A DNA stretch of 42,853 bases from Tannerellaceae bacterium (GCA_031555145.1 JAVBUR010000040.1:1-42853); one strand, 5' to 3'. Shown: positions 1 through 13,773, numbered from the stretch's first letter. Program-made: numbers and translations. Notes: generated by a model not told the origin, from the letters alone.

Positions 1-304
1 CGCTGACGCGGCGCATGATAATTGTTGTTATTCTAATTGACCGTGGGCTCGGCTTCGCCAGCACCCACGGCTACGAACACAATGCCCGTGACCGGGCATT
101 CATCGTCGCGGCGAACACCCATTACTTTCAAATTTCGTTGAATATGAATGTTGTGTATCTTGTAACCAGGCGATCTTTCGGACGGTTTTGTCCGGTTTCG
201 GACACATCAGCAAAATGGCAATTGATTTATTTTCAACCCATTGACATTTCGGCACGCCTGTTGCAGGTAAGGCAGCAAACATCAAACAAGATAAATTATA
301 GGAT

Positions 305-973
305 ATGGGAATCATAGAAATGGAGGGTATTAGCAAGAAATACCGTACGAAAGAAGTGGAAACACTTGCATTGGAGAATGTCAATCTGGAAGTAAAGGCT
401 GGCGAATTCCTGTCGGTTATGGGACCGTCGGGATGTGGAAAGAGTACGCTGCTCAACCTGATGGGGTTGCTCGATCTGCCGGATGAAGGAAACATACGGA
501 TCGCCGGTCAGGAGACTACCGGCATGAAAGACGGCGCCATGGCTGAGTTCCGTAATGAAACATTGGGATTTGTCTTCCAGAGTTTCCACCTGATCAACTC
601 GCTCAATGTGATTGAGAATGTGGAGATGCCCCTCCTCTATCGTTCATCGACAGAAAAAGAGCGGCGTGAAAAAGCGAAAGCCGTATTAGAAAAGGTCGGC
701 CTCTCCCACCGGATGAAACACTTCCCCAGCCAGCTCTCCGGCGGACAATGCCAACGTGTCGCCATCGCCCGTGCCCTGATCGGCAACCCGAAGATCATCC
801 TGGCCGACGAACCTACGGGTAACCTCGACAGCCGGATGGGTGCTGAGATCATGGACATACTGTTCGGCCTCAACCAGGAAGGCGCCACCATCGTCATGGT
901 TACCCACGACGAACGGATTGCCAAAGAGACCCAACGCATTGTTCGCTTCTTCGACGGAAGACGGATTGAATAG
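305..973 (+). CDS. ABC transporter ATP-binding protein (MacB/LolD-like ATPase subunit)
   Basis: Walker A GPSGCGKST, ABC signature LSGGQCQRVAIARAL and Walker B ILADEPT. Product is 222 aa. The N-terminus IEMEGISKKY is typical of LolD/MacB-type ATPases. It is followed directly by FtsX-type permease genes. Confidence 0.9.
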   Translation: MGIIEMEGISKKYRTKEVETLALENVNLEVKAGEFLSVMGPSGCGKSTLLNLMGLLDLPDEGNIRIAGQETTGMKDGAMAEFRNETLGFVFQSFHLINSLNVIENVEMPLLYRSSTEKERREKAKAVLEKVGLSHRMKHFPSQLSGGQCQRVAIARALIGNPKIILADEPTGNLDSRMGAEIMDILFGLNQEGATIVMVTHDERIAKETQRIVRFFDGRRIE

Positions 974-1025: not shown

Positions 1026-2291
1026 ATGTATAAGATATATTTCAAACAGGCCCTTTATATACTGAAGAGCAATCCGTTGCTCAGTCTTATTTCCATTATA
1101 GGAACGGCATTGGCTATCTGCATGATCATGGTCATTATGATTCTGTATGAAGTCAATACGGCGGACATTACGCCGGAAGTAAACCGGAGCCGTTCGTATT
1201 ATGTGACGGTCATTGAATCGCTTAATAAGACGACAAAGCAACGATATTCCTATACATACCTCGGATACACATTCACCAAAGAGTGTCTGTATTCACTTAC
1301 ACAAGCGGAAACGGTTACCGCCACGATTCATGGCCATACCTCTTTTACTTCCACAATGGATCAGCAACAGGAGTATATGAGCAATGTGCTTTACACAGAT
1401 GTCACCTTTTGGAGTGCATACCAGTTTCATTTTGTGGATGGGCGCCCGTACAACGAAGCTGAATTCGCAAGCGGCCTCCGCAACATAGTGATCACAGAAA
1501 GCCTTGCCCGCAGGATGTTCGGTACGGAAAAAGCGGCCGGCAAACAACTGAAATTAAGTTATATCCCGTATACAATCAGCGGAGTAGTAAAGGATGTTTC
1601 AAAATTTGCAGATAAAGCGTATGCTGACATATGGCTTCCTTTTACCACCATGAAAAACATTCCGGATTGGAACGAAGGGGTCAATGGCGACATGCAATGT
1701 ACCATCATAGCAAAAGAAGGCGTAACCCGGAAAGGGTTGCAGGAAGAAATAGCCAACAAAATGGCGGTATTCAACTCCAAAACATCACAGGTTGAAGCCT
1801 TTATCAATGAGCAGCCGATGAGCCACGCTCAACTATGGCTAACAGGAGGAGGTACACACCAGGCTCCTAATATGCAAAACACCTTCTTCAGGTACGGATT
1901 CCTGATCCTTATGCTGCTACTGGTTCCCGCGCTCAATCTTTCCGGTATTATATTATCCCAAATGCAAAAACGGCTAGGAGAACTGGGCGTACGCAGGGCC
2001 TTTGGAGCCAAATCCAATCATCTGCTTTGGCAGGTTATAACCGAAAATGCCGTACAGACACTGATAGGCGGTTTTCTGGGATTAGTATTATCCTATTTGG
2101 GTTTGTATTTGCTTCGGAACTGGCTATTGACAACAACTATGGGAGTTGACAGCTTGACTGGCAGCATGTTCAGTATCACTGTATTCTTATACGCCTTTCT
2201 GTTCTGCATGGTGATGAACCTGCTGTCGGCCGGTATTCCGGCATGGAACGTCTCCCGTTCAAAAATTATAGATTCATTAAACACACTATAA
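1026..2291 (+). CDS. FtsX-family ABC transporter permease (MacB-like, A-type paralog 1)
   Basis: The long ORF 840-2291 overlaps the ATPase. The start was chosen at ATG 1026 (MYKIYFKQA...) because paralogs at 3576 and 6150 begin identically. One N-terminal TM, a large extracytoplasmic domain and a C-terminal 3-TM FtsX region ending ...LLSAGIPAWNVSRSKIIDSLN. Confidence 0.8.
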   Translation: MYKIYFKQALYILKSNPLLSLISIIGTALAICMIMVIMILYEVNTADITPEVNRSRSYYVTVIESLNKTTKQRYSYTYLGYTFTKECLYSLTQAETVTATIHGHTSFTSTMDQQQEYMSNVLYTDVTFWSAYQFHFVDGRPYNEAEFASGLRNIVITESLARRMFGTEKAAGKQLKLSYIPYTISGVVKDVSKFADKAYADIWLPFTTMKNIPDWNEGVNGDMQCTIIAKEGVTRKGLQEEIANKMAVFNSKTSQVEAFINEQPMSHAQLWLTGGGTHQAPNMQNTFFRYGFLILMLLLVPALNLSGIILSQMQKRLGELGVRRAFGAKSNHLLWQVITENAVQTLIGGFLGLVLSYLGLYLLRNWLLTTTMGVDSLTGSMFSITVFLYAFLFCMVMNLLSAGIPAWNVSRSKIIDSLNTL

Positions 2292-2296
2292 AAGTT

Positions 2297-3559
2297 ATGT
2301 GGACAACCGTAATCCGACAAATGTGGAACGAACGGAAAGGGAATAGCCTGATCTGGTTCGAATTAGTGATTGTGGCTGCTTTTATGTGGTACACTGTTGA
2401 TGCATTGTACATTGCGTATAAGAATTACACCCGACCGTTAGGCTTCGATATCAACCACACCTATCATATCTCACTCGCGGCAATAGATAAAGAGAGTGAA
2501 GCATACGATCAGGCGGCATCCGACGCTGAAACTCCCGGCGACTATTTCTTTACCATACTTGATCGTATCGGTCGGAATCCACAAGTGGAGGCCGTATGCT
2601 ATACCAGCAATAATCATTTTCATTATAAATGGAGTAACCAGTTCAGTACATTCAAAAATGATTCGCTGTCCCGGAATGGGTATGTACGGAATGTAAGTCC
2701 TTCCTATTTTCAGGTATTCAATGTACAATCTGCTAATGACAGGGATCGTGAGGAATTAGGAAAAGTATTGGAGAGAAACGAGATTGTGATTACCAACACT
2801 GTAGCCAATACTTTTTTTGGAAATACATCCAATGCTATGAGTAAGGAAATCCGATGCATTATCCAGAACGAAGACAGTGCCCTCTACAAGATCGGAGCCG
2901 TATGCGAAGCACAACGAACCAATGATTTCCGGGAATATGATTATGCATTTTACCGAAATATACCTGCCGACCAGTTAAGAAAGCATCTTGGAAGCCCGGC
3001 CTACATGAACATCTTCATCCGTATCAAGGCGAATAACGACAGTAAAGCCTTTCCGGAAAAATTCCGTAAAGAAATGCGCGAACAACTCCATGTGGGCAAT
3101 TGCTATCTGGCAAACATTACCCCCATGTCCGAATACAGGGAACAACAAATACGCGAGGGGCTGGATCAAATGCGTATGAACAGTTCTGTCATTGGCTTCT
3201 TTCTGCTAAATGTGCTATTAGGGGTAGTCGGCACCTTCTGGCTTCGCACCCAACGAAAACAAGGTGAAATCGGTCTCCGGTTGGCAGTCGGATCGTCGCA
3301 ATCAGGCATTGCCCGGTTACTTTTCCTGGAGGGAAACATCTTACTATTGGCCGCTTTTATTCCTGCCACCTTGATCTTCATCAACCTGCAATATGCCGGC
3401 GTCATAGAGAGTGTATACGGATTACCGTTTATCCCTCGTTTTCTGACAGGTATGATCATTACTTATTTGTTATTGGCCGGTATGATGGGGGTTGGCATAT
3501 CCTTCCCGGCATGGCGGGCGGTAAAAATTAGTCCGGTAAAGGCATTACATTACGAATAA
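2297..3559 (+). CDS. FtsX-family ABC transporter permease (B-type paralog 1)
   Basis: Start chosen at ATG 2297 (MWTTVIRQMWNERKGNS...) by analogy with the MIRHILTIIWNERK N-termini of paralogs at 4844 and 7421. C-terminal FtsX-like TM bundle ...PAWRAVKISPVKALHYE. Confidence 0.75.
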   Translation: MWTTVIRQMWNERKGNSLIWFELVIVAAFMWYTVDALYIAYKNYTRPLGFDINHTYHISLAAIDKESEAYDQAASDAETPGDYFFTILDRIGRNPQVEAVCYTSNNHFHYKWSNQFSTFKNDSLSRNGYVRNVSPSYFQVFNVQSANDRDREELGKVLERNEIVITNTVANTFFGNTSNAMSKEIRCIIQNEDSALYKIGAVCEAQRTNDFREYDYAFYRNIPADQLRKHLGSPAYMNIFIRIKANNDSKAFPEKFRKEMREQLHVGNCYLANITPMSEYREQQIREGLDQMRMNSSVIGFFLLNVLLGVVGTFWLRTQRKQGEIGLRLAVGSSQSGIARLLFLEGNILLLAAFIPATLIFINLQYAGVIESVYGLPFIPRFLTGMIITYLLLAGMMGVGISFPAWRAVKISPVKALHYE

Positions 3560-3575: not shown

Positions 3576-4847
3576 ATGTACAAAATATATTTCAAACAAG
3601 CCATCCAGATGCTGAAACAAAACAAGTTTATCAGCATCGTAGCTATCATCGGTACGGCGTTAGCCATTATGATGATCATGGCTATCCTGGTATCCGAAGA
3701 AGTGAAAACGATCAGTGTAGCGCCGGAGGTGAACCGCGACCGGACGTATTACGTCAGTTATCAGGCCGTAAGGGATACCACCAGTGGCATGATGGTGAGT
3801 GGATTCGTCGATTATGATATCATACGCAAATACCTGGCGGAACTGAAAACACCCGAATGTGTATCGGCTGTTAATATGTATGATACACGAACCACCAAAC
3901 TAATCAACACGGAAGGTTCGAATACCTATGTCAATGCCATTGTGCGGATCACTGACGCGAATTACTGGAAGATAATGGCGTTCAATTTTATCGAAGGGAA
4001 ACCATTCGTTCAGGAAGAATTTGACTCCGGCATTCCGGTAGCTGTTATCAGCCAAAACATGGAACGAACGCTATTCAAAGGAGAGAAAGCGCTTGGACAA
4101 ATCATCTTGGTGGAGTTCAAGCCCTACCGGGTCATTGGTATCGTAAAGGATGTCTCACCGGTTTTCAGAATGGCATACGGCCAGGTATGGATCACATATA
4201 CCTCACAGAAAAAGTTTGAACATTCGGGATACCATGTCATGTTGCTAGCACGCAGCAACAATGACTACCCGGCCATGTATGAAGAGGTTCGGAATGTAGA
4301 GAAGAGGTATCATGCCGACAAGAATCCCTGGACCATGTATCTGCGCGGGCCTGAAAATCATCGCATCTACCAGATGGATGTTCGGGCGGGCAATGCCAAT
4401 TCCGTAGCCAAAGGAATCAAGACACAGAACAGGAAGATGGTGTTCATCCTGCTGATACTGCTGCTGATACCGGCCATCAACCTGTCGGGATTCAGTCTTT
4501 CACGTATCAAACGGCGTACCGCTGAAATCGGAGTCCGGAAAGCGTTCGGAGCCAAGCGGTACATCATCCTGATACAGGTGCTTTGTGAAAACCTGATCAC
4601 TTCGCTGATCGGGGGTATGATCGGGCTACTTTTCTCTTATTTGGTGATCTTCCAGATGCGGAGATGGTTGCTCGGAGTCCCGACTGGTAGTGATATTCCT
4701 GGCAGCACGCTTATTTCCCTGCCCGTTTTTATTGCCGTATTCGTCGTATGCCTGCTAATCAACCTGCTCTCTGCCGGTATACCGGCCTACCGGGCTTCCC
4801 AGATGAAAATAATCGATTCACTCAATCAAAACGATAAACAATCATGA
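3576..4847 (+). CDS. FtsX-family ABC transporter permease (A-type paralog 2)
   Basis: 423 aa. N-terminus MYKIYFKQAIQMLKQNKF. C-terminal conserved block RIKRRTAEIGVRKAFGAK...LLSAGIPAYRASQMKIIDSLN. 4-bp overlap with the next gene. Confidence 0.85.
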   Translation: MYKIYFKQAIQMLKQNKFISIVAIIGTALAIMMIMAILVSEEVKTISVAPEVNRDRTYYVSYQAVRDTTSGMMVSGFVDYDIIRKYLAELKTPECVSAVNMYDTRTTKLINTEGSNTYVNAIVRITDANYWKIMAFNFIEGKPFVQEEFDSGIPVAVISQNMERTLFKGEKALGQIILVEFKPYRVIGIVKDVSPVFRMAYGQVWITYTSQKKFEHSGYHVMLLARSNNDYPAMYEEVRNVEKRYHADKNPWTMYLRGPENHRIYQMDVRAGNANSVAKGIKTQNRKMVFILLILLLIPAINLSGFSLSRIKRRTAEIGVRKAFGAKRYIILIQVLCENLITSLIGGMIGLLFSYLVIFQMRRWLLGVPTGSDIPGSTLISLPVFIAVFVVCLLINLLSAGIPAYRASQMKIIDSLNQNDKQS

Positions 4848-6106
4848 TACGCCATATCCTCACCATTATCTGGAACGAACGGAAAACGAATGCCTGGATC
4901 GTTGTCGAATACACCCTTGTCTTCTGTATCCTATGGTTTTGTTGCGACTATCTGTACTTTATAGGGAAATCCTATATCGAGCCGTTGGGGTTTGATATCG
5001 AACATACCTATGCCATTGAGATGGGTGAGAAGGATCAGGAAGGAGATCCCAGTACGAAAGAAGACATATATGCAGATGCTATCACGTTAATGGAACGTGT
5101 CAAACGTTATCCGGGTGTCGAAAGTGTCAGTTTCAGTTCTTCTTCCGTACCCTATTTCCTGAGCTGGAGCGGTAACGGGTATATCGTCAATTCGGATTCC
5201 ACCTGGCAAACCATACAGCTACGAAGAGTAACACCGGGTTACTTTGACGTATTCAGGATAAAGATGGTATCAGGACGTGCCTTCACACCCGAAAACAGCA
5301 ATGATAATACGATACTGATCAGTCCGGACAGAAATAACATGTTTGGTAAAGACAAAAACACCATCCATGCCATATCAGATGTACGTACGCTCCGTACAGC
5401 AGAAGAAGGTGATGATACATATACGGTTACCGGTATCACTGATAAAATGAAAAGGGCATTTTACGAACCATACGAAATCAGTATATTTCAGCCACTAAGC
5501 AGAGATATGTACAACCCGTCATGGAATGAAATCACCATCCGGGTACGTCCGGAAGCCGACAAGAACTTCGCCGAACAATTTACACGCGACATGCGCGAAC
5601 AATTGATGATCGGGTCTTATTTCCTCACCTCCATAACATCCTTGGAGGAGATACGGGATTCCGCCGCCGAATGGAGTGGCATCTGGGCGAACCTGAACAG
5701 CATCTATTCTATCACCGCATTCCTGATCATCAATATCTTCCTCGGTATTATCGGCACCTTCTGGTATCGGACACAGGCACGGCGCAGTGAGATCGGGTTA
5801 CGTATTGCACTGGGGGCCACCAAACGGCAAATCAAGACAATACTCTGTACAGAAACACTGCTATTGTTACTCCTATCCAGCATTATCGGTATCAACATCT
5901 GTCTGAACATCAACCAGACCGACCTGCTGAAAACACTGGGGATCCCGGCAGCCGACAGCGTAGCGGCAGGCAGCGGCATCGAACAATACTTCATCAACTT
6001 TGCCCTCACCTTCGGTTTCCTTGCCCTGGTTTCCCTGGCTGCCGTATGGTACCCGGCACGACAGGCGGCAAATATTCCGCCGGTAGAGGCATTACGAGAA
6101 GAATAA
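4844..6106 (+). CDS. FtsX-family ABC transporter permease (B-type paralog 2)
   Basis: 420 aa. N-terminus MIRHILTIIWNERKTNAW. C-terminal FtsX TM region ...AVWYPARQAANIPPVEALREE. Confidence 0.85.
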   Translation: MIRHILTIIWNERKTNAWIVVEYTLVFCILWFCCDYLYFIGKSYIEPLGFDIEHTYAIEMGEKDQEGDPSTKEDIYADAITLMERVKRYPGVESVSFSSSSVPYFLSWSGNGYIVNSDSTWQTIQLRRVTPGYFDVFRIKMVSGRAFTPENSNDNTILISPDRNNMFGKDKNTIHAISDVRTLRTAEEGDDTYTVTGITDKMKRAFYEPYEISIFQPLSRDMYNPSWNEITIRVRPEADKNFAEQFTRDMREQLMIGSYFLTSITSLEEIRDSAAEWSGIWANLNSIYSITAFLIINIFLGIIGTFWYRTQARRSEIGLRIALGATKRQIKTILCTETLLLLLLSSIIGINICLNINQTDLLKTLGIPAADSVAAGSGIEQYFINFALTFGFLALVSLAAVWYPARQAANIPPVEALREE

Positions 6107-6149
6107 GGAGAGTATGCATTAGTACAGGTAAGAGACACTATTGTTAGCT

Positions 6150-7424
6150 ATGTATAAGATCTATTTCAAACAAGCTATCCAGATGCTGAAGCAGAACAAG
6201 TTCATCAGCATCGTAGCGATCATCGGCACGGCATTGGCCATTATGATGATCATGGCGATACTGGTATCCGAAGAAGTGAAGACGATCAGTGTGGCACCGG
6301 AAATCAACCGTGACCGGACGTTTTATATCCATTATCAGACAGAGCGGGATACGAGCGGCCTCAATCATACTTCAAATTCCGGTTACCTCACTTACAATGT
6401 AGTACGACACTATCTGTCAAACCTGAAAACACCCGAACAGGTATCTGCCATAAGCTCCGAAATATGCCTCACAAACCGAGAAGGGATGAGCGAATATGTC
6501 AATACAGTGGTACGCCAGATCGATGCCTCTTATTGGAAGATACTCGCCTTTACATTTATTGAAGGAAGACCTTTCAGTCAGGAAGAGTTCGAATCAGGCC
6601 TACAGGTTGCCGTGATCAATCAAAGTACCGCCCAACAGTTATTCAAAGGCGAGCAGGCAATCGGACAAACCATCCTGATCGAATTCAAGCCCTATCGGGT
6701 AGTCGGCATTGTTAGAGATGTATCGTCTGTCTTTACAATGGCTCACGGAGATATATGGATCGCCTATACCTCACAACAAAACAATGAATCCAGGAATGCG
6801 TCTATATTCAACCTGATGTTGCTGGCACGAAACACGGATGATTACCCGGCCATCAGTGAAGAAATACGCAAAATGGAAAAGAAATACCAGACAGACAACA
6901 CGGCTAAAACCCTCGAACTGATGGGACCGATAAGCCATCGTACCTATCGGATGAATATTCGAGGGGGCACGGCTGAGAGCATCGCCAAAGAGGTTCAAAT
7001 ACAAAACCGCAAACTGTTATTTATATTGTTGGTCCTGTTGTTGATCCCTGCCATCAACCTGTCAGGCTTCAGCCTGTCGCGCATCAAACGGCGCACGGCG
7101 GAGATTGGTGTCCGGAAAGCGTTCGGTGCCAAACAGTATGTCATCCTGTTCCAGGTACTTTGCGAGAATCTGGTAACCTCTCTAATCGGCGGTGTGATCG
7201 GGCTTCCGCTCTCGTATGTAGTGGTATTCATGATGCGTGACTGGTTACTGAATCTACCCGACGATAGTGTGATCCCAGTCAGCACACTGGTTTCGCTACC
7301 GGTATTACTGGCTGTATTCACCATATGCCTGCTGATTAATCTGTTGTCTGCCGGCATCCCGGCCTACCGGGCTTCATGCATGAAAATAGTCGACTCCATC
7401 AATCAAAACGATAAGCAAGCATGA
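6150..7424 (+). CDS. FtsX-family ABC transporter permease (A-type paralog 3)
   Basis: The ORF track begins at TTG 6141. ATG 6150 gives MYKIYFKQAIQMLKQNKF, identical to the 3576 paralog over about 50 aa. Middle domain diverged, C-terminus conserved. Confidence 0.85.
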   Translation: MYKIYFKQAIQMLKQNKFISIVAIIGTALAIMMIMAILVSEEVKTISVAPEINRDRTFYIHYQTERDTSGLNHTSNSGYLTYNVVRHYLSNLKTPEQVSAISSEICLTNREGMSEYVNTVVRQIDASYWKILAFTFIEGRPFSQEEFESGLQVAVINQSTAQQLFKGEQAIGQTILIEFKPYRVVGIVRDVSSVFTMAHGDIWIAYTSQQNNESRNASIFNLMLLARNTDDYPAISEEIRKMEKKYQTDNTAKTLELMGPISHRTYRMNIRGGTAESIAKEVQIQNRKLLFILLVLLLIPAINLSGFSLSRIKRRTAEIGVRKAFGAKQYVILFQVLCENLVTSLIGGVIGLPLSYVVVFMMRDWLLNLPDDSVIPVSTLVSLPVLLAVFTICLLINLLSAGIPAYRASCMKIVDSINQNDKQA

Positions 7425-8689
7425 TACGACATATCCTTACCATTATCTGGAACGAACGAAAAGCCAATAGCTGGATCGTGATAGAGTACACCTTTGTCTT
7501 TTGCATCCTGTGGTTCTGCTGCGACTACTTGTACTTCATCGGCAAATCATACATGGAGCCACTGGGTTTCAACATTGAACATACTTATCGCATCCAAATG
7601 AAAGAAAGAGACGGCGACAGGGATGCCCGAAAGCAAGAAGACACGTATGCCCATATCCGGCTCTTTCTGGAACGGGTCAAACGCCACCCGGCCATTGAAG
7701 GTGTCAGTATAAGCCAATCGGCGGCACCCTATCTCGGCAGTTTCTCCAGTACCGGTTTTAAAATCAATACGGACTCTGTCTGGCCAACCATACAACAACG
7801 AATGGTTACACCGGATTTTTTCGATGTATTTAAGATCAAGCTACAATCCGGACGCGCCTTTAACGAACAAGAAGACTGGAATAGTATTGTCGCCCTGATA
7901 GCCCCGAACAGGCATCAACGATTTGGAGCAAGAGGAGAACCCGGAATACCGGTTACGGAAGTACGCACAGTCTCCAAAGATTATGAAGAAGGTAAGCAGT
8001 TCCATTCGGTGATTGGTATCACTGCCCCTATAAAAACGACGTTCTATGACCCGTATCGTTGTTGTGTATTTCTACCGATGAACCTGACATATTCCGACCT
8101 GCGCTGGGCGGAAATCATTGTCCGTGTACGACCGAAAGCTGATCGGAACTTTGTCGAACAGTTCACCCGCGACATGCGTGAACAATTGATGATCGGCCCG
8201 TATTTCCTGACAACTGTTACCCCATTAACCAAATTGCGTGATAGCTTCATGAAAGGGCAAGGTATAACATCCAGCCTGAACAGCATCTACTCCATCACCG
8301 CCTTCCTGATCATCAATATCTTCCTCGGCATTATCGGTACCTTTTGGTATCGGACACAGGCACGACGGAGTGAAATCGGACTTCGCATCGCCATGGGTGC
8401 CAGCCGGCGACAGATCGAAACAATGCTATTCGCCGAGACACTACTGCTATTATTCATCGCCAGTGTGATAGGTCTCAACATCTGCCTCAATATCAATCAG
8501 ACTGACTTGTTGCAGGCACTCGGCATCCCTCAATCCGACCATGCACAGGCCGGTATTGGTATCGAACATTACTTTATCAACTACACACTGACCTTCGGTT
8601 TCCTGGCCATCATTTCCCTGGCAGCCGTATGGTATCCGGCACGGCAGGCGGCAAGTATACCACCGGTAGAAGCATTGCAGGAAGAATAA
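7421..8689 (+). CDS. FtsX-family ABC transporter permease (B-type paralog 3)
   Basis: 422 aa. MIRHILTIIWNERKANSW N-terminus. High similarity to the 4844 gene at both termini. Confidence 0.85.
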   Translation: MIRHILTIIWNERKANSWIVIEYTFVFCILWFCCDYLYFIGKSYMEPLGFNIEHTYRIQMKERDGDRDARKQEDTYAHIRLFLERVKRHPAIEGVSISQSAAPYLGSFSSTGFKINTDSVWPTIQQRMVTPDFFDVFKIKLQSGRAFNEQEDWNSIVALIAPNRHQRFGARGEPGIPVTEVRTVSKDYEEGKQFHSVIGITAPIKTTFYDPYRCCVFLPMNLTYSDLRWAEIIVRVRPKADRNFVEQFTRDMREQLMIGPYFLTTVTPLTKLRDSFMKGQGITSSLNSIYSITAFLIINIFLGIIGTFWYRTQARRSEIGLRIAMGASRRQIETMLFAETLLLLFIASVIGLNICLNINQTDLLQALGIPQSDHAQAGIGIEHYFINYTLTFGFLAIISLAAVWYPARQAASIPPVEALQEE

Positions 8690-8755
8690 ATACCAAATAA
8701 CACAACCCTATTCAATAAAATCTTTATTTTTACATGTTCAAGAAGTGAATGCCCC

Positions 8756-10117
8756 ATGATATTGATTTGTGACGACGATGTAACCGTTCGTACCACCCTC
8801 ACACTGGTACTCAAACGGGCAGGATATGAAGTAGCAACGGCTGCCACGCGGCAGGAGGCAATCGACTTTGTACGCCATACCGAGCCGCAACTCATCCTGA
8901 TGGATATGAACTACAGCCAGACGACCACGGGTGAAGAAGGATTGGAACTACTGGCGCAGGCCAAGGTGTTCCGTCCCGATGTGCCGGTGATCCTGATCAC
9001 GGCCTGGGGGTCGATCGGGTTGGCAGTACAGGGCATACGCGCCGGGGCATTCGACTTCGTCACCAAGCCCTGGAACAACGTGGCGCTACTGAACAGTATC
9101 CAGACGGCTATCCAATTGAACGAAGAAAGCCGGAAAGAGATTCCGGACAGCCTTACCTCCCCGGGTAAATCGTTGCGTAACGATAAGATCATCGGTCGTT
9201 CCCCACTCCTACAACAGGTAATGAACACAGTTGCCCGTATTGCCCATACCAGCGCACCTGTTCTGATCACCGGCGAAAGCGGTACAGGTAAAGAACTCAT
9301 CGCTGAAGCCATCCATGAAGGCAGCAACCGTAACAAAGGAACTTTTGTTAAAGTTAACCTGGGAGGTATCTCCCAGTCGTTATTCGAAAGCGAGATGTTC
9401 GGACACAAACAGGGAGCCTTCACCGATGCCCGGCACGACCGGGTGGGACGGTTTGAACTGGCGAACAAGGGTAGCATCTTCCTCGACGAGATCGGCGAAC
9501 TCGACCTCGTATGCCAGGTTAAGCTGTTGCGTGTATTACAGGATCAGACCTTCGAACCGCTTGGCGACAGTAAACCCCGGCAAGTGGATACCCGCATCAT
9601 CAGCGCCACCAATCGTAACCTGACCGAGATGGTCGCACAGGGATCATTCCGCGAAGACCTGTTCTACCGCATCAACCTGATTACCATCCGGATGCCTTCG
9701 CTGCGTGAACGGTTGGAAGATATTCCACTGCTGGCAGATCATTTTGCCCGGAAACAGACCAAACTGAATGGATTACCGCCTGTCGAAATAGCGCCGGACG
9801 CTATTCGATACCTGCAACAACTGCCTTTCCCGGGTAATATCCGCGAACTGAAGAACCTGGTAGACCGCACTCTACTGGTATCCGGCCACCAACGGATCAC
9901 AGAGGCCGACTTTCGCGAACAATACGTAGAGATACCCTCCGGGCACGAACCGGAAGCCAGTTCCGTGCAGTCGCTCGAACGAATTGAGAAGAACATGATC
10001 CTCCGGGCAATCAAACTCTATGGATCGAACCACTCTAAGATCGCTACCGCCCTGGGTGTGAGCAGGCAAACGCTCTACCGGCGCCTCGAGAAATACGATA
10101 TCAAACTCCCTGAATAA
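8756..10117 (+). CDS. sigma-54-dependent Fis-family response regulator (NtrC-like)
   Basis: N-terminal receiver domain (ICDDD...LILMDMNY...KP), AAA+ sigma54-interaction domain (GESGTGKE, GAFTDA, ESELFGH-like), C-terminal Fis HTH (KIATALGVSRQTLYRRLEKYDI). Confidence 0.9.
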   Translation: MILICDDDVTVRTTLTLVLKRAGYEVATAATRQEAIDFVRHTEPQLILMDMNYSQTTTGEEGLELLAQAKVFRPDVPVILITAWGSIGLAVQGIRAGAFDFVTKPWNNVALLNSIQTAIQLNEESRKEIPDSLTSPGKSLRNDKIIGRSPLLQQVMNTVARIAHTSAPVLITGESGTGKELIAEAIHEGSNRNKGTFVKVNLGGISQSLFESEMFGHKQGAFTDARHDRVGRFELANKGSIFLDEIGELDLVCQVKLLRVLQDQTFEPLGDSKPRQVDTRIISATNRNLTEMVAQGSFREDLFYRINLITIRMPSLRERLEDIPLLADHFARKQTKLNGLPPVEIAPDAIRYLQQLPFPGNIRELKNLVDRTLLVSGHQRITEADFREQYVEIPSGHEPEASSVQSLERIEKNMILRAIKLYGSNHSKIATALGVSRQTLYRRLEKYDIKLPE

Positions 10118-10118: not shown

Positions 10119-11420
10119 ATGCGACGGAAGTGGTTATTCTGGATCATCGCCTGTATCCTGTCGGGATCACTGATCGGTATCGGTTGGGTATTTTTCCGCG
10201 AAGACATCACATCGTTATGGGTAATCGAAGGGATTGCGATGATCGCGATCCTGTTGGCAGTCCTGCTCTACCAGAAGTTGATCAAACCCTACAACCTGAT
10301 ACTAAGCGGTATGCAACTGCTGAATGAACAGGACTTCTCCACCAGCCTTCGTCCTGTTAAAAACAAGGATGCCGACCAGTTGATCAGTGTATTCAACCGG
10401 ATGATCACCCACCTCAGGCACGAACGGCTATTGGTTCGCGAGAAGAACCAGTTTCTCGACCTGCTGATCAATGCTTCGCCACAAGGTATCATCATTCTCA
10501 ATTTCGACCGCCGCATCACCGAAGCGAATGCTTCCGGACTCAAATTGCTGGGAGTTGACAGCCTGACCGATATACAAGGACTGCGCTTCGACGAACTGAC
10601 CTTCGAACTGGCACCTTCCCTCGCCGCACTGAAACCAGGCGAAGACGTCATCATCCGCGGTGCAGGAGGCTATGCCTACCGCTGTGTCTATTCGTCGTTT
10701 GTGGATAACGGTTTCGACCATCCCTTTATCCTGATTGAGGAACTCAGTCATGAGTTGATTAAGATCGAAAAGGCGTCCTACGACCGGATTATCCGCATGA
10801 TGTCGCACGAAGTGAATAATTCCGTCGGGGCTATCGGAGCTACATTGAATGTCGTTTCCGATATCTTCCGGCATGATGAGGCACAACGCTGGGATGACGT
10901 CCTGCCGGCCGTCGAAGCCTCTTATGAACGTTGTGGCCGGTTGGCACACTTTATCGGCAATCTGGCCGAAGTTGTCAAGATACCCGAACCGTCCCTGTCG
11001 GATATTTCCCTCAACGAGCAGGTTCGGTCGGTATACGCCCTCACCAGCAGCGAATGCCGACAACGCGACATCACACTAACACTATCACTGGCCGAGCCCG
11101 ACACCCTGATCCGGGTAGACGGTATTCAGTTCGAACAGGTGCTGGTAAATATTATCAAGAATGCCTATGAAGCCATCGGCACCCACGGTGAGATACGGAT
11201 TGCCACCACAGCCTCTCCCCTCTCCATCCGGATAGAGAACAACGGCCCTGCTATCGACGAGGCTGTCCGCCAGAAACTCTTCACCCCCTTCTTCACGACA
11301 AAGACTACCGGACACGGTATCGGACTGATGTTTGTTCGCGACGTCCTCATCAACCACCACTGCAAATTCAATCTCAGCAGTCAGGACGGATGGACACGGT
11401 TTGAAATCCTTTTTACCTGA
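10119..11420 (+). CDS. sensor histidine kinase (two TM helices with a minimal extracytoplasmic loop, PAS-like, HisKA, HATPase_c)
   Basis: TM1 LFWIIACILSGSLIGIGWVFF and TM2 WVIEGIAMIAILLAVLLY are separated by about 7 residues. H-box MSHEVNNSVGAI. G-boxes ...NNGPAIDE... and GHGIGL. The start is adjacent to the response-regulator stop. Confidence 0.85.
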   Translation: MRRKWLFWIIACILSGSLIGIGWVFFREDITSLWVIEGIAMIAILLAVLLYQKLIKPYNLILSGMQLLNEQDFSTSLRPVKNKDADQLISVFNRMITHLRHERLLVREKNQFLDLLINASPQGIIILNFDRRITEANASGLKLLGVDSLTDIQGLRFDELTFELAPSLAALKPGEDVIIRGAGGYAYRCVYSSFVDNGFDHPFILIEELSHELIKIEKASYDRIIRMMSHEVNNSVGAIGATLNVVSDIFRHDEAQRWDDVLPAVEASYERCGRLAHFIGNLAEVVKIPEPSLSDISLNEQVRSVYALTSSECRQRDITLTLSLAEPDTLIRVDGIQFEQVLVNIIKNAYEAIGTHGEIRIATTASPLSIRIENNGPAIDEAVRQKLFTPFFTTKTTGHGIGLMFVRDVLINHHCKFNLSSQDGWTRFEILFT

Positions 11421-11432
11421 TCACAAAAAGAA

Positions 11433-11454
11433 AGCCGGACATCAACATCCGGCT
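11433..11454. terminator. bidirectional hairpin terminator between convergent genes
   Basis: aGCCGGAcatcaacaTCCGGCt: a 6-7 bp GC-rich stem between the HK stop (11420) and the stop of the minus-strand lipoprotein (11487). Confidence 0.5.
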
Positions 11455-11486
11455 TCTCCTGTTAAACTAAAATGTACTTGCCAAAC

Positions 11487-11837
11487 TTATTTTACGCCTT
11501 TTTCTTTAACGGTCACTGACAATGTTACTGACTTACCATCCTTATCCTTTACAGTAACTGTAGCTGTTCCTTTCTTGACACCTTTTACGGTAAAGTCTTT
11601 CTTTGTATCCGCAACAGTAGCGATGTCTTTGCTGGACGATTCTACTTTATAAGGAGGAATACCACCTTTAATGTTGACCGTCTTTGATGTAGCACCTTCT
11701 GCCACTTCGATCTTGGTTTCGCTCAACGACAGTTTTACCGGTTTCGGATCATCTTTATCGCAACTTACCAGAAAAGCAGTTGCCAATACAGCCACACAGA
11801 AAACAGTTTTGATACCGGATAAATGGAAATTTTTCAT
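11487..11837 (-). CDS. small lipoprotein with bacterial Ig-like (BIG2) domain
   Basis: Start chosen at MKNFHLSGIKTVFCVAVLATAFLVSC (signal peptide with lipobox LVSC). Repetitive KGxKKGTATVTVKDKDGKSVTLSVTV is typical of Big_2. The ORF track extension to 11876 adds a non-signal N-terminus. Confidence 0.55.
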   Translation of the reverse strand: MKNFHLSGIKTVFCVAVLATAFLVSCDKDDPKPVKLSLSETKIEVAEGATSKTVNIKGGIPPYKVESSSKDIATVADTKKDFTVKGVKKGTATVTVKDKDGKSVTLSVTVKEKGVK

Positions 11838-11987
11838 GTTGAAATAATTAAATGTTAATAAATAAGATATTGTCAATTAAGTAAGGCGTTCGGCATGAAG
11901 GATCGCCTTTCATATATATTGATGCCAACCCGATGCTAAAGACTGCATGCCCGATGAAAAAAATAATCATTTATATTCGGGAATCTC

Positions 11988-13169
11988 TCAAAAGACATAC
12001 CGGATCCCGGAACCAATCCCTGGGAGCAAGGGCTTTTCCGTACGAATGCTGAGCGGTTGACTATTATTGAAATAATACGACAATTTGGGTTCCAGATAGA
12101 TTTCCCAATCTTTCGACAAACGATAGGATATCCCTGCCGACAGTTGTAACGACCATTGCCAGCCATCCATCCGGGCCTTCCGTTCGACCACCTTGTCAGA
12201 CGCATATAATCGCTGTGTCAATTCAGCCTGCAAACCTTTTTCAGCCATTATTCCGCCCGAAGTATACAACCGCCAACTCGGATGACTCTGCCACAGGTTG
12301 GCGGTGAATGACAAGGGAATGCCTATATAATGTAGTTTCAAATCGGCTTTATACATATAATTCACATCCCTGTAGGACGTTGAAAGATAGCTATACATCA
12401 CGCCTGTCTCCACACCGAATGTCTGGTTTAACTCTTTATGTACCAATACCCCGACTGAAAACGGCGGAGCAAACCCCAGGTCAGTGATTGCTGTTGGATC
12501 AGGCAAGAACTCGGGTCCCTGGCTCAGCAATGGTGAGTCATTATCAGTCTTACTGCCCGACATGGAGACAGTCGCCGCCAGCGTCCATGCCCGTGATGAC
12601 TTTGCCCGGTTCGGTTTATCTTGTTTTGTGTATGGACGGTATCCGGAAGGACGTTTACCGGAAGGAGTAGGCGGACCAACGGATTGATCCGCCCGGGGAA
12701 CTGCCAGTGTAGTCGCCTCGGCAGTTTCTCCCTCCCTTTCTTCCGGTACAGCAGATGTGTCAGGGGGAACATCTGCTGCTTCCCGTTCAGCAATTACAGC
12801 CGGAGCAACGTATCGTTCTTCCGACAGTAACGGAACGGAAGTTTCACTTCCGGAAGTACTTCCGATAACCTGTTCTTGTTTTTTAATATCCTGCCTGGCA
12901 ACTGTTCCTACGGGAAGAAGTTGATCATCCTCCGTTATCCTCGCCAGAGAAAATACCAGCAGAAAGAGTGCCGCGACCATAGCAGCTGATCCGACCACAC
13001 GCAGAAATAGTTTCGCTGTTCTCCTTCGGTTCAAGCTTCGGTCTATGCGTTTCCAACAATCCTCATCCACTTCAAACGAGTAGTTCTCGATCGTTTGCTG
13101 TATGTATTGATTGAATAGTTCCTGTTTTGCAGGAAAGTTGTTATTGTGCGTGTGCATACATTTGTTCAT
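11988..13169 (-). CDS. ECF sigma-associated membrane protein (putative anti-sigma factor) with C-terminal OMP beta-barrel-like domain
   Basis: Overlaps the stop of the upstream ECF sigma gene. About 55 aa cytoplasmic N-terminus, one TM (LFLRVVGSAAMVAALFLLVF), about 150 aa Pro/Ser/Thr/Glu-rich low-complexity linker, then a C-terminal ~170 aa region with alternating hydrophobic strands ending GIGSGIRYVF (OMP beta-signal-like). Confidence 0.6.
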   Translation of the reverse strand: MNKCMHTHNNNFPAKQELFNQYIQQTIENYSFEVDEDCWKRIDRSLNRRRTAKLFLRVVGSAAMVAALFLLVFSLARITEDDQLLPVGTVARQDIKKQEQVIGSTSGSETSVPLLSEERYVAPAVIAEREAADVPPDTSAVPEEREGETAEATTLAVPRADQSVGPPTPSGKRPSGYRPYTKQDKPNRAKSSRAWTLAATVSMSGSKTDNDSPLLSQGPEFLPDPTAITDLGFAPPFSVGVLVHKELNQTFGVETGVMYSYLSTSYRDVNYMYKADLKLHYIGIPLSFTANLWQSHPSWRLYTSGGIMAEKGLQAELTQRLYASDKVVERKARMDGWQWSLQLSAGISYRLSKDWEIYLEPKLSYYFNNSQPLSIRTEKPLLPGIGSGIRYVF

Positions 13170-13773
13170 TTACTGATGTTATCATTTTCTGGAGTATCTT
13201 CCGCGCCCGGGTCAATTGGGACTGTGAAGTACTTTCCTTGATATTCAACATAGCGGCAATCTCGCTATGCGAGTAACCTTCCACCACGTAGAGATTGAAA
13301 ACCGTACCATACCCCGCCGGCAGGCGGGCAATACAGTCATACAGTTCATCAGCCGATATCTTACTCAGCACCGAAGGATTCATATCGTCTTCCATCAGGG
13401 CACAATCTTCTACCGGTACATTCAGTTTAAAGACATTATTCTGGCGTAAATACTCAAGGGAGGTGGTTACAAAGATGCGTCTCACCCATCCGGCAAAAGA
13501 TCCCTCACCCTTATAGGATCCAATATGGGTAAAGAGTTTAACAAACCCCTCCTGTAAGAGGTCTTGTGCCGTGTCCGGATCATTATTCACATACCTGCGA
13601 CAGACCCCCAACATAACAGGAGCATATGTTGTATACAATAATCGTTGAGATTTGGCGTCACCTCGTAAGCATCCGTTAATCAAAGACTGTTCGTCCGTGA
13701 TTGAAGGCGTTTTCATCACATTCATAGTCATCCGGATGCGTTTGATACCGACATCCGATTTTATGATGCACAA
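13141..13773 (-). CDS. RNA polymerase ECF-type sigma-70 factor
   Basis: Region 2 (LLQEGFVKLFTHIGSYKGEGSFAGWVRRI) and region 4 HTH (VVEGYSHSEIAAMLNIKESTSQSQLTRARKIL). The true start may be an internal Met (MTMNVMKTPSITDEQ, around 13716-13731). The longest ORF is given. Confidence 0.75.
   Translation of the reverse strand: MCIIKSDVGIKRIRMTMNVMKTPSITDEQSLINGCLRGDAKSQRLLYTTYAPVMLGVCRRYVNNDPDTAQDLLQEGFVKLFTHIGSYKGEGSFAGWVRRIFVTTSLEYLRQNNVFKLNVPVEDCALMEDDMNPSVLSKISADELYDCIARLPAGYGTVFNLYVVEGYSHSEIAAMLNIKESTSQSQLTRARKILQKMITSVNEQMYAHAQ

What the first reader, a model, noticed from the sequence alone, without database searches (positions are those of the whole stretch)
3576..8689. Recent tandem duplication of an A/B permease pair with conserved membrane parts and diverged periplasmic domains
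The gene pairs at 3576/4844 and 6150/7421 have near-identical N-termini (MYKIYFKQAIQMLKQNKFISIVAIIGTALAIMMIMAILVSEEVKTISVAPE... and MIRHILTIIWNERK...WFCCDYLYFIGKSY...) and near-identical C-terminal TM bundles. The roughly 250-aa extracytoplasmic domains have diverged strongly. This is the signature of duplication followed by diversification of the ligand-contacting domain. The first pair (1026/2297) is an older, more divergent copy. The 2.5-kb direct repeats could also drive copy-number change by homologous recombination.
Basis: seen in the sequence. Interest (0 to 1): 0.55.

Follow-up and report, generated by a model that had tools for sequence, protein, structure and literature searches.

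The report
Old duplicated ABC-transporter permease gene pairs
Two neighbouring pairs of membrane-transporter genes are real copies of each other, but the copying is ancient rather than recent, and their conserved-membrane, variable-outer-domain pattern is simply how this whole protein family evolves, so the finding is largely ordinary.

Summary
The repeat is real. Units 3576-6149 and 6150-8723 align over about 2.5 kb at 69.9% nucleotide identity. Each encodes an A-B pair of MacB/FtsX (type VII ABC) permeases (A2/A3 69% aa, B2/B3 64%). An older pair sits at 1026-3559.

"Recent" is wrong. Synonymous sites are near saturation in every domain (pS 0.55-0.78). Pair 2 groups with a pair from another species (97% bootstrap) and never with pair 3.

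The domain pattern is real (N-terminus/TM1 90-98%, periplasmic 49-56%, TM2-4 about 80%). But orthologues show the same gradient. It tracks family-wide site conservation. Duplicated copies are no faster than single-copy ones. Close orthologues show purifying selection (omega 0.05-0.13).

The longest exact match between the units is 26 bp, so they are a poor recombination substrate.

Context: one operon, with a conserved enhancer-like palindrome, a sigma-54 promoter, one ATPase, (A-B)x3, a sigma-54 response regulator and a two-TM histidine kinase without a periplasmic sensor domain. Across 76 complete loci the pair number is 1 (66 loci), 2 (5), 3 (4) or 5 (1).

Verdict: an old lineage-specific expansion, a new member of a known kind, of modest interest.

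The parts
180..204 (+). Putative enhancer (UAS): GGAC-N6-TGTCCG-N4-CGGACA, two overlapping palindromes. It is the likely binding site of the operon's own sigma-54 response regulator.
   Evidence: TGTCCGGTTTCGGACA at 189-204 is the only match in the window. GTCCG-N4-CGGAC lies upstream of the operon in 30 of the 35 sequences (window plus L001-L034). In the 15 Bacteroidales sequences where the strict -24/-12 pattern also matched, the two lie 58-61 bp apart; the spacing is 68-80 bp in the Massilia-type loci. The half-sites are invariant in a 12-locus alignment whose mean column identity is 58%. Binding itself is inferred.
250..264 (+). Sigma-54 type -24/-12 promoter element CGGCAC-N5-TTGC, 41 nt upstream of the ATPase start codon.
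   Evidence: GGCACGCCTGTTGC at 251-264 is the only match in the window. The same element is conserved at the same position in related loci. Function is inferred.
305..973 (+). The single ABC ATPase (nucleotide-binding subunit) of the operon, of LolD/MacB/YbbA/DarD type.
   Evidence: Pfam ABC_tran, 2.9e-35. Best NCBIfam matches are DarD, LolD, the MacB NBD and YbbA, all below their equivalog cut-offs. Walker A GPSGCGKST, signature LSGGQ and Walker B ILADEPT are visible in the translation.
1026..2291 (+). A1: A-type MacB/FtsX permease, in the old divergent pair.
   Evidence: MacB_PCD 7e-23 and FtsX 9e-16. Matches the N-half of the ADOP model. 37-40% identical to A2/A3. Groups with L002 pair 1 (100% bootstrap) and with the first pairs of L016 and L020.
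2297..3559 (+). B1: B-type permease, partner of A1.
   Evidence: MacB_PCD and FtsX. Matches the C-half of the ADOP model. 31-33% identical to B2/B3. The start at 2297 is chosen by alignment with the B2/B3 N-termini.
3576..4847 (+). A2: A-type permease, repeat unit 2.
   Evidence: Pfam. AF2 model with pLDDT 84.5. Foldseek top hits are MacB 5GKO/5LIL/5NIK at about E 1e-19. 4-TM topology. Orthologue of the first L001 pair (97% bootstrap).
4844..6106 (+). B2: B-type permease. Its start overlaps the A2 stop by 4 bp (ATGA).
   Evidence: Pfam. C-half of ADOP. PDB sequence hits to MacB, YtrF and LolE.
6150..7424 (+). A3: A-type permease, repeat unit 3.
   Evidence: 69% aa and 70% nt identity to A2; pS 0.66.
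7421..8689 (+). B3: B-type permease. Its start overlaps the A3 stop by 4 bp.
   Evidence: 64% aa and 68% nt identity to B2; pS 0.65.
8756..10117 (+). NtrC-type sigma-54-dependent response regulator (receiver + AAA+ + Fis-type HTH).
   Evidence: Sigma54_activat 2e-68, Response_reg 4.5e-23, HTH_8 2e-9. A GAFTDA loop is visible in the translation. Always follows the permease array in related loci.
10119..11420 (+). Histidine kinase with two N-terminal TM helices joined by a loop of about 7 residues, then a PAS domain and the kinase core. There is no periplasmic sensor domain.
   Evidence: HATPase_c and PAS_8. Hydropathy segments 4-27 and 29-57. The same topology is seen in 25 diverse loci.
11431..11456 (.). 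GC-rich stem-loop after the kinase gene, between convergent genes. Probable end of the operon.
   Evidence: Terminator-like site (11 pairs, called on the minus strand). Its action on the plus-strand transcript is inferred.

Best explanation
Region 3576-8689 holds two copies of a two-gene cassette, A-B. The cassette encodes the two unlike halves of a MacB/FtsX-type (type VII ABC) permease. It was duplicated in tandem long ago, within a Tannerellaceae lineage and before the window's species split from its nearest sequenced relatives.

The cassettes sit in one operon. In order it has an enhancer-like palindrome, a sigma-54 promoter, one ATPase gene, three A-B pairs, a sigma-54 response regulator, and a histidine kinase that lacks a periplasmic sensor domain.

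The conserved parts of the paralogues are the N-terminal helix plus TM1, and the end of TM2 plus the segment before TM3. In MacB these are the parts that touch the ATPase. They are near-invariant across the whole family.

The periplasmic domain evolves about 2.5 times faster in all lineages, duplicated or not, and is under purifying selection. The domain pattern is therefore ordinary differential constraint, not a special post-duplication signature.

Inferred mechanism: the kinase and regulator activate the sigma-54 promoter. One ATPase dimer powers whichever A-B heterodimer it binds. By mechanotransmission the complex expels or extracts compounds from the periplasm or outer leaflet. Three pairs with different periplasmic domains probably widen the range of compounds handled.

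Shown here: gene content, fold, age of the duplication, constraint pattern, conserved cis-elements, variation in pair number.
Inferred: A-B heterodimer, shared ATPase, regulation, substrates.
For: Family and fold:
- All six proteins pass the Pfam thresholds for MacB_PCD and FtsX.
- All six have the 4-TM topology with about 240 hydrophilic residues between TM1 and TM2.
- The A2 model has pLDDT 84.5. It matches MacB, LolCDE, YtrEF, HrtBA, YbbAP and BceAB.

A-B as one unit:
- A proteins match positions 7-400 of the duplicated-permease model TIGR03434, and B proteins match 441-803.
- A is followed by B in nearly every locus.
- A-A and partner B-B distances correlate at r = 0.97; Mantel test 0 of 999 permutations reached this.
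- The stop and start codons overlap by 4 bp within pairs 2 and 3.

Age:
- pS is 0.55-0.78 in all domains.
- dS of the paralogues is about 1.5-1.6, against 0.7-1.2 for the flanking ATPase, regulator and kinase genes between the window and L001.
- Pair 2 with the first L001 pair has 97% bootstrap. Window pairs 2 and 3 as sisters has 0%. The five Tannerellaceae pairs are monophyletic at 100%.

Ordinary constraint:
- Orthologues show the same gradient.
- Paralogue identity tracks family conservation, r about 0.5 per site, with 100% identity at family-invariant sites.
- There is no rate acceleration in duplicated copies.
- Omega is 0.05-0.13 in the close orthologues L001/L002.

Operon and regulation:
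- There is a single UAS and a single -24/-12 element in the window.
- Both are conserved, with fixed spacing, across loci.
- Gaps between genes are short.

Pair number: n = 1 in 66 loci, 2 in 5, 3 in 4 and 5 in 1.

The roles of the coupling helix and N-terminal helix in NBD contact, and mechanotransmission, are taken from PMC5985334.
Against: - No experiment or multimer model shows that A and B form a heterodimer, or that all pairs use the one ATPase.
- No substrate is known.
- The window clade lacks an adjacent membrane-fusion protein and outer-membrane factor. Whether it works as a tripartite pump is therefore open.
- The window has only 304 bp upstream of the ATPase.
- With dS saturated, dN/dS between the paralogues is unreliable. 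Episodic or site-specific positive selection in the periplasmic domain cannot be excluded.
- The orthology of window pair 3 with the second pair of L001/L002 is unresolved (54% vs 44% bootstrap).
- A few short stretches have lower dS (A codons 16-45, 0.57; B codons 286-315, 0.41). These could be old, small conversion tracts or codon constraint.
Confidence: 0.7

Rival explanations
1. One reading: a recent tandem duplication whose ligend-contacting periplasmic domains were then rapidly diversified by selection, while the membrane parts stayed the same. Further copy-number change would be driven by recombination between the repeats.
For: The domain-specific pattern is real. Pair number varies between species. 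One stretch of B (alignment columns 151-195) has pN about equal to pS.
Against: - pS is 0.55-0.78 even where the proteins are identical.
- The duplication predates speciation.
- Orthologues show the same gradient.
- There is no acceleration relative to single-copy genes.
- Divergence sits at family-wide variable sites.
- Close orthologues have omega 0.05-0.13.
- The repeats are about 70% identical with at most 26 bp of exact match.
Confidence: 0.07
2. Concerted evolution: gene conversion between the copies keeps the N-terminal and TM segments alike, while the periplasmic parts escape conversion.
For: The highest nucleotide identity (79-85%) lies in the N-terminal and TM blocks. dS is locally lower in A codons 16-45 and B codons 286-315. 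With N-terminus plus TM1 columns only, the window paralogues group together in 32% of bootstraps.
Against: - pS in the N-terminal/TM1 blocks is 0.55 (A) and 0.78 (B), far from what a recent conversion would leave.
- A tree from TM columns only still groups pair 2 with its orthologue (92%), not with pair 3 (6%).
- The same blocks are conserved family-wide.
Confidence: 0.05
3. Cassette shuffling: the array was assembled, at least in part, by recombination that imported A-B cassettes from other loci or other lineages, rather than by duplication in place. This applies above all to pair 1.
For: - Pair 1 belongs to a separate old clade. That clade also holds the first pairs of L016 and L020, and pairs from loci without the regulator and kinase (L023-L025).
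- L001 and L002 are mosaic: 82% nucleotide identity over promoter plus ATPase, but 92.7% over the last pair plus regulator and kinase. They also carry different first pairs.
Against: Pairs 2 and 3, with their L001 and L002 relatives, form one lineage-specific clade (100% bootstrap). This fits duplication within the lineage. There are no mobile-element genes in the array and no compositional anomaly.
Confidence: 0.2
4. Redundant copies: the three pairs do the same job, as a dosage or robustness effect. Their periplasmic differences would be neutral drift without functional consequence.
For: Divergence is concentrated at sites that vary freely in the whole family. There is no rate change after duplication.
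Against: - Both copies have stayed intact and under purifying selection for longer than the species split.
- All family-invariant residues are kept.
- Most lineages manage with one pair. Long-term retention of three pairs therefore suggests distinct roles.
Confidence: 0.15

Closest known systems
MacB of the MacAB-TolC tripartite efflux pump (type VII ABC transporter; PDB 5NIK, 5LIL, 5GKO)
   Same: Four-TM topology with a large periplasmic domain between TM1 and TM2. Pfam MacB_PCD plus FtsX. Best sequence and fold matches. Sister clades of this operon carry an adjacent HlyD-type adaptor and an outer-membrane factor.
   Different: The ATPase is a separate gene, not fused. The permease is two unlike proteins (A and B), not a homodimer. 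No adaptor or outer-membrane factor lies next to the operon in the closest relative (L001) or in the 304 bp available upstream in the window. Control is by a sigma-54 two-component system. [quoted passage not shown]
ADOP-family duplicated permeases (TIGR03434) and E. coli YbbP of YbbAP-TesA (PDB 9GE6; PMC12646458)
   Same: A matches the N-terminal half and B the C-terminal half of the ADOP model. The ATPase resembles YbbA. YbbAP is among the fold hits. ADOP genes are known for large paralogue clusters, for example ten in Psychroflexus torquis (PMC3914696).
   Different: Here the two halves are separate genes of about 420 codons each, not one chain of about 800 residues. Scores are far below the family cut-off (about 90-140 vs 622 bits). 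ADOP genes are 'orphans' without an adjacent ATPase, whereas this array has one. No TesA-like hydrolase is nearby.
LolCDE lipoprotein extractor
   Same: Two paralogous type VII permeases form a heterodimer served by one separately encoded ATPase. LolC and LolE are among the fold hits. The ATPase is LolD-like.
   Different: The scores for lolCE (27 vs 362 bits) and LolD (243 vs 308 bits) fail the equivalog cut-offs. Copy number is variable and the system is under two-component control, unlike an essential housekeeping system.
BceAB-BceRS antimicrobial-peptide sensing and resistance modules of Firmicutes
   Same: A type VII/FtsX-superfamily transporter is genetically tied to a two-component system whose kinase has two TM helices and essentially no extracellular loop. 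BceAB(S) appears among the fold hits. Transporter and TCS co-evolution is described in PMC5985334.
   Different: BceB is a single 10-TM protein. BceR, from my own knowledge, is an OmpR-type regulator, whereas this one is NtrC/sigma-54 type. This kinase also has a cytoplasmic PAS domain. No interaction between transporter and kinase has been shown here.
Sigma-54 control of COG0577 (FtsX-like) permeases in Bacteroidia, predicted genome-wide (PMC12316311)
   Same: That study reported statistical enrichment of sigma-54 promoters upstream of ABC-type antimicrobial-peptide permeases in Bacteroidia. This operon is a concrete case with a -24/-12 element.
   Different: In the passages read, the paper does not mention the enhancer palindrome, the dedicated regulator and kinase pair, or the A-B cassette expansion. 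The supplements were not checked.

Membership tests
Type VII ABC transporter permease (MacB/FtsX superfamily) | Pfam FtsX C-terminal domain and MacB-like periplasmic core domain above gathering thresholds | tested here: met
   All six proteins pass both thresholds, except that B1's FtsX score of 24.5 bits is just under the 25.5 cut-off.
Type VII ABC transporter permease (MacB/FtsX superfamily) | Four TM helices with a large extracytoplasmic domain between TM1 and TM2 | tested here: met
   Hydropathy shows TM1 at about 16-45, then TM2-4 at about 285-407, in all six proteins. The AF2 model has helices 17-45, 274-322, 328-360 and 382-409 around a beta-rich domain.
Type VII ABC transporter permease (MacB/FtsX superfamily) | Fold match to solved MacB-type structures | tested here: met
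   Foldseek: 5GKO 1.3e-19, 5LIL 3.4e-19, 5XU1 4.9e-19, 5NIK 1.3e-18, probability 1.00. TM-scores are only 0.4-0.6, as expected for different conformations.
Type VII ABC transporter permease (MacB/FtsX superfamily) | Major coupling helix between TM2 and TM3 that contacts the ATPase | tested here: inconclusive
   Family-invariant residues in and just after this stretch: S309, R314, E317, G319, R321-K327. The window of alignment columns 301-330 covering it is 100% identical in A2 and A3. However, the model has low confidence at 322-324 and does not resolve a separate helix.
MacAB-TolC-type tripartite efflux pump | Adjacent periplasmic adaptor (HlyD/MacA) and outer-membrane factor genes | tested here: not met
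   None is found in the 42.8-kb window or upstream in the closest locus L001. They are present in sister clades: MFP-ATPase-(A-B)n-OMF in L013, L015-L022 and L058, and MFP-OMF-ATPase-A-B in soil loci. Partners encoded elsewhere cannot be excluded.
MacAB-TolC-type tripartite efflux pump | ATPase fused to the permease, which acts as a homodimer | tested here: not met
   The ATPase gene is separate (305-973), and there are two unlike permease genes per unit.
LolCDE | NCBIfam equivalog scores for lolCE and LolD | tested here: not met
   lolCE scores 27.4 bits against a cut-off of 362, for B2 only. LolD scores 242.9 against 307.75.
ADOP family duplicated permease (TIGR03434) | Two FtsX-type halves in one polypeptide of about 800 residues that scores above the family cut-off | tested here: not met
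   The halves are split into two genes. Scores are 91-140 bits against a cut-off of 622. A maps to model positions 7-404 and B to 441-803. It works like a split ADOP, but it is not a member by the model's criterion.
Sigma-54-dependent operon with a bacterial enhancer-binding protein | A -24/-12 promoter (GG-N10-GC) upstream, and an activator with a sigma-54 interaction AAA+ domain | tested here: met
   CGGCAC-N5-TTGC at 250-264 is unique in the window and conserved across loci. Sigma54_activat 2.3e-68 in the regulator. Actual RpoN dependence is not testable here.
Bce-type transporter plus two-component sensing module | Kinase without an extracellular sensor domain (two TM helices, short loop), genetically linked to an FtsX-superfamily transporter | tested here: met
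   (25 diverse loci); linkage.
Bce-type transporter plus two-component sensing module | 10-TM BceB-type permease and OmpR-type regulator | tested here: not met
   The permeases are 4-TM. The regulator is of NtrC type.
Bce-type transporter plus two-component sensing module | Physical and functional coupling of transporter and kinase | not testable with these tools
   This needs two-hybrid, pull-down or reporter assays.
Recent tandem duplication | Low synonymous divergence, with paralogues as sister genes within the genome | tested here: not met
   pS 0.65-0.66 and dS about 1.5-1.6 overall. Window pairs 2 and 3 are sisters in 0% of bootstraps.

The most novel reading that the evidence does not exclude
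The conserved module consists of an enhancer palindrome, a sigma-54 promoter, an ATPase, an A-B permease, an NtrC-type regulator and a kinase without a sensor domain. It could be a Gram-negative counterpart of the Firmicute Bce systems. In that reading the type VII transporter itself detects its substrate and signals through the membrane to the kinase, which then induces the operon through sigma-54. Lineages that added extra A-B cassettes, as here with three, would have widened both what is sensed and what is removed. The invariant TM1 and N-terminal segments of the paralogues would then be conserved to dock the shared kinase as well as the shared ATPase.
Probability: 0.25. Interest if true: 0.55.

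Novelty: new member of a known kind. Interest (0 to 1): 0.3.

Why it matters
The result corrects a tempting reading. Conserved membrane parts with variable outer domains in paralogues do not by themselves indicate recent duplication or adaptive diversification, because single-copy orthologues show the same pattern.

On the positive side, the work defines a widespread module that I did not find experimentally studied in the literature I searched. It is a sigma-54 and two-component controlled, two-half MacB-type ABC transporter. It has a sharply conserved enhancer and promoter, and a cassette number that varies from 1 to 5.

If the pairs differ in substrate, such arrays would be a simple way for gut Bacteroidales to broaden resistance to peptides, bile compounds or other envelope-active molecules. 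They would also give a tractable system for asking what sets specificity in type VII ABC transporters.

Tried and rejected
- Exact-protein look-up of A2 found no contig. The large protein search showed that the window is the only record of this species, with the next relatives at 74% and 71%. The metagenome scan with the kinase found nothing closer than 72%.
- My first UAS pattern, with an N5 spacer, gave no hits. The correct spacer is N4.
- The first bootstrap run drew the tree without support values. I repeated it with a faster script.
- dN/dS between the paralogues is unreliable because dS is saturated. I therefore relied on orthologue comparison, a family-profile test and a relative-rate test.
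- Gene conversion was considered and rejected as the main cause of TM conservation.
- Horizontal acquisition of the whole array was considered. There is no compositional anomaly and there are no mobile-element genes.
- Seven of the ten allowed literature searches were run. None found an experimental study of this operon type. They yielded only a genome-wide promoter statistic and an ADOP cluster description.
- No RNA-family, tRNA or tandem-repeat analysis was run, because the feature is protein-coding.

Full report
**1. What is at the coordinates.**
ORF listing and translation show six collinear plus-strand genes after an ABC ATPase gene (305-973). They are A1 1026-2291, B1 2297-3559, A2 3576-4847, B2 4844-6106, A3 6150-7424 and B3 7421-8689.
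- Units 3576-6149 and 6150-8723 align end to end over 2,567 columns at 69.9% nucleotide identity, E = 0.
- At protein level, A2/A3 are 69% identical and B2/B3 64%. A1 is 37-40% identical to A2/A3, and B1 31-33% to B2/B3. A and B types are only about 20% identical to each other.
- The repeat is therefore real and far beyond chance, and pair 1 is indeed older.

**2. What the proteins are.**
- All six carry Pfam MacB_PCD and FtsX domains.
- All six have the four-TM topology with about 240 hydrophilic residues between TM1 and TM2.
- PDB sequence searches hit MacB, the pneumococcal Spr0694-0695 permease, YtrF and LolE.
- An AlphaFold2 model of A2, built on 62 homologues, has mean pLDDT 84.5 and pTM 0.79.
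- Foldseek against the PDB returns MacB (5GKO, 5LIL, 5NIK; E about 1e-19), then LolCDE, YtrEF, HrtBA, YbbAP, BceAB(S) and FtsEX. That set is the type VII ABC superfamily.
- NCBIfam adds a key detail. A-type proteins match positions 7-404 of the 'ADOP family duplicated permease' model TIGR03434, and B-type proteins match positions 441-803. An A-B pair therefore corresponds to the two halves of a duplicated permease, encoded as two genes.
- A-A distances and the distances between their partner B proteins correlate at r = 0.97; in the Mantel test 0 of 999 permutations reached this value.
- Pairs 2 and 3 have 4-bp stop/start overlaps.
- From all this I infer an obligate A-B heterodimer that duplicates as a unit. 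The heterodimer itself is not shown.

**3. The duplication is not recent.**
- Nei-Gojobori estimates give pS 0.66 (A2/A3) and 0.65 (B2/B3), so dS is about 1.5-1.6.
- pS stays at 0.55-0.78 in each domain, including the N-terminal blocks where the proteins are 90-98% identical.
- For comparison, the flanking ATPase, regulator and kinase genes have dS 0.72, 0.86 and 1.18 between the window and its closest relative L001.
- In bootstrapped NJ trees of concatenated A+B, window pair 2 groups with the first pair of L001 in 97% of replicates. The two window pairs are never sisters (0%).
- The five pairs from the window, L001 and L002 form a clade in 100% of replicates.
- The duplication therefore happened within this Tannerellaceae lineage, but before these species diverged.
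- Whether window pair 3 is orthologous to the second pair of L001/L002 is unresolved (54% against 44%).
- The longest exact match between the two units is 26 bp. The best ungapped blocks are 76-85% identical over 200-300 nt. RecA-type recombination between them should be inefficient; that last step is an inference from established knowledge.

**4. The domain pattern is real but not diagnostic.**
Paralogue identity by domain (N-terminus+TM1 / periplasmic / TM2-4) is 98/56/79% for A and 90/49/80% for B. Four tests argue against a special 'diversification after duplication' signature.
- (a) Orthologues between the window and L001 show the same gradient: A2 92/64/85% and B2 94/58/84%.
- (b) Per-site, A2/A3 identity follows the conservation profile of 58 other family members. 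It is 100% at family-invariant sites and falls to 30% at sites under 40% conserved (r = 0.52). The B proteins behave the same way (r = 0.50).
- (c) In a relative-rate test, periplasmic-domain distances to outgroups are 1.31 for multi-copy and 1.32 for single-copy A genes, and 1.46 against 1.49 for B genes. There was no acceleration after duplication.
- (d) The closely related L001/L002 orthologues (dS about 0.2) have omega 0.05 (A) and 0.13 (B) in the periplasmic domain, which is purifying selection.

Gene conversion does not explain the conserved membrane parts. A tree from TM columns only still groups orthologues (92%) rather than paralogues (6%), and synonymous sites there are saturated. 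A few short windows with lower dS are not convincing.

The most conserved blocks are the N-terminal helix plus TM1, and the end of TM2 plus the segment leading to TM3 (with family-invariant residues S309, R314, E317, G319 and R321-K327). In MacB these correspond to the elements that contact the nucleotide-binding domain (PMC5985334). With one ATPase gene serving three pairs, their conservation is expected. That link is an inference.

**5. The operon around it.**
- Downstream of B3 lie an NtrC-type sigma-54 activator (8756-10117) and a histidine kinase (10119-11420).
- The kinase has two N-terminal TM helices joined by about 7 residues, so it has no periplasmic sensor domain. The same topology is found in 25 diverse related loci.
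- Upstream of the ATPase, the window has CGGCAC-N5-TTGC at 250-264. This is its only GGCAC-N5-TTGC match.
- The palindrome TGTCCGGTTTCGGACA lies at 189-204 and is also unique in the window.
- Across the window and the 34 genome loci, GTCCG-N4-CGGAC lies upstream of the operon in 30 of 35 sequences. Where the strict -24/-12 pattern also matched (15 Bacteroidales sequences, including the window), the two lie 58-61 bp apart; the spacing is 68-80 bp in the Massilia-type loci.
- In a 12-locus alignment, the half-sites GGAC-N6-TGTCCG-N4-CGGACA and the GGCA...TTG core are invariant, while the rest averages 58% identity.
- Gaps between genes are 5-66 bp or overlaps, and there are no further such promoter elements. 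A stem-loop follows the kinase gene.
- I infer one sigma-54 transcript of about 11 kb, activated by the operon's own regulator. This is not shown.

**6. Comparative picture.**
A scan of species-representative genomes with A2 and a metagenome scan with the kinase gave 114 loci.
- Seventy-six sequences (the window and 75 of these loci) hold a complete ATPase-(A-B)n-regulator stretch. Of those, n = 1 in 66, 2 in 5, 3 in 4 (window, L010, L016, L020) and 5 in one (Prevotella sp. 10(H), L017). Many of the metagenome loci are probably redundant.
- The module occurs in Tannerellaceae, Bacteroides, Dysgonomonas, Prevotella and Alistipes, in Massilia (Betaproteobacteria) and in many environmental contigs.
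- In several clades it includes a HlyD-type adaptor and an outer-membrane factor, making it a MacAB-TolC-like tripartite pump.
- The window's clade lacks these next to the operon.
- Expansions arose independently in several clades and show differential loss.
- The nearest relatives have two pairs each, but different ones. L001 has pair 2 and pair 3-like cassettes. L002 has pair 1 and pair 3-like cassettes.
- L001 and L002 are mosaic: 82% nucleotide identity over promoter plus ATPase, but 92.7% over the last pair, regulator and kinase. Cassette content has therefore changed by loss and/or recombination over species-level time.
- Pair 1 belongs to an old clade shared with the first pairs of L016 and L020, and with pairs from loci that lack the regulator and kinase (L023-L025). 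It may be an ancient paralogue or an import.

**7. Mechanism proposed.**
- Shown: fold, architecture and cis-elements.
- Inferred: the sensor-less kinase responds to an envelope or membrane signal, possibly through the transporter itself, as in Bce modules. The regulator binds the palindromes and activates the sigma-54 promoter. An ATPase dimer binds an A-B heterodimer through the conserved N-terminal and coupling segments. ATP-driven mechanotransmission (PMC5985334) moves the periplasmic domains to expel or extract a substrate from the periplasm or outer leaflet. Three pairs with 49-56% identical periplasmic domains probably handle different substrates.
- The substrate class is unknown. Antimicrobial peptides or other envelope-active compounds are the usual guess for COG0577-type systems (PMC12316311).

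**8. Novelty.**
- Tandem clusters of MacB_PCD permease paralogues are already described, for example ten ADOP paralogues in Psychroflexus torquis (PMC3914696).
- A statistical link between sigma-54 promoters and FtsX-like permeases in Bacteroidia was reported in 2025 (PMC12316311).
- I found no experimental study of this particular operon type in the held library.
- The finding as stated is therefore a new member of a known kind.
- The conserved enhancer/promoter architecture and the cassette-wise expansion are useful descriptive additions.
- A Bce-like sensing role is an untested possibility.

**9. Limits.**
- The window is a complete 42,853-bp contig of a metagenome-assembled genome, with only 304 bp upstream of the ATPase.
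- No closer relative exists in any collection searched.
- Trees are NJ on modest alignments.
- dN/dS between the paralogues is unreliable because of saturation.

Noticed in passing
window 180-264: A sharply conserved cis-regulatory block lies upstream of the ATPase: GGAC-N6-TGTCCG-N4-CGGACA, followed by a sigma-54 -24/-12 element 58-61 bp downstream. The palindrome lies upstream of the operon in 30 of 35 sequences, including betaproteobacterial Massilia (spacing 68-80 bp there).
   Followed up: yes
window 10119-10290 (kinase N-terminus): The histidine kinase has two TM helices joined by about 7 residues and no periplasmic domain, followed by a conserved KEQDFS-type motif. The same holds in 25 diverse loci. 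This is the topology of intramembrane-sensing kinases such as BceS.
   Followed up: partly
L001 9201-17854 vs L002 6627-15252: The two closest relatives are mosaic. Promoter plus ATPase are 82% identical, but the last permease pair plus regulator plus kinase are 92.7% identical, and the first pairs are of different types. Their flanks outside the operon do not match each other.
   Followed up: partly
window 11421-13825: About 2.4 kb is present in the window but absent at this position in L001, where downstream synteny resumes (window 13826-17253 = L001 17887-21275, 83% identity). It holds a 129-aa ORF with no Pfam hit (11487-11876, minus strand), a protein with an outer-membrane beta-barrel domain (11988-13169, minus strand) and an ECF-type sigma factor (13141-13773, minus strand).
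   Followed up: no
L024 (Parabacteroides distasonis) and L025 (same MAG as L001): A second locus type lacks the regulator and kinase: adaptor-(A-B)-(A-B)-ATPase-(A-B), with an outer-membrane factor in L024. It carries relatives of the window's pair 1. The MAG that holds L001 therefore has at least five A-B pairs in two loci.
   Followed up: partly
L022 11269-13862: An Alistipes locus has A-B-B, two B-type genes after one A gene. This is an exception to the strict A-B pairing.
   Followed up: no
L017 4214-20638 (Prevotella sp. 10(H)): This is the largest array seen: five A-B pairs between one ATPase and an outer-membrane factor, then the regulator and kinase.
   Followed up: partly
window 33359-42415: A typical Bacteroidales polysaccharide-utilisation-type cluster: ECF sigma factor, FecR-type anti-sigma, SusC-like TonB receptor with an STN domain, SusD-like protein and a sulfatase. 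A further sulfatase lies at 28439-30001 (minus strand).
   Followed up: no
window 20970-22256: A protein that combines an SPFH/Band 7 domain with several C-terminal zinc ribbons. It is followed by two ORFs with no Pfam match (22267-22995 and 23007-23699), in a low-GC stretch (38% over 22001-24000).
   Followed up: no
L031 6224-7162 and 7845-8783 (Parabacteroides gordonii): Two Mfa2-like fimbrial anchor genes with identical N-termini sit in tandem just upstream of the transporter operon. They look like a much more recent duplication than the one under study.
   Followed up: no
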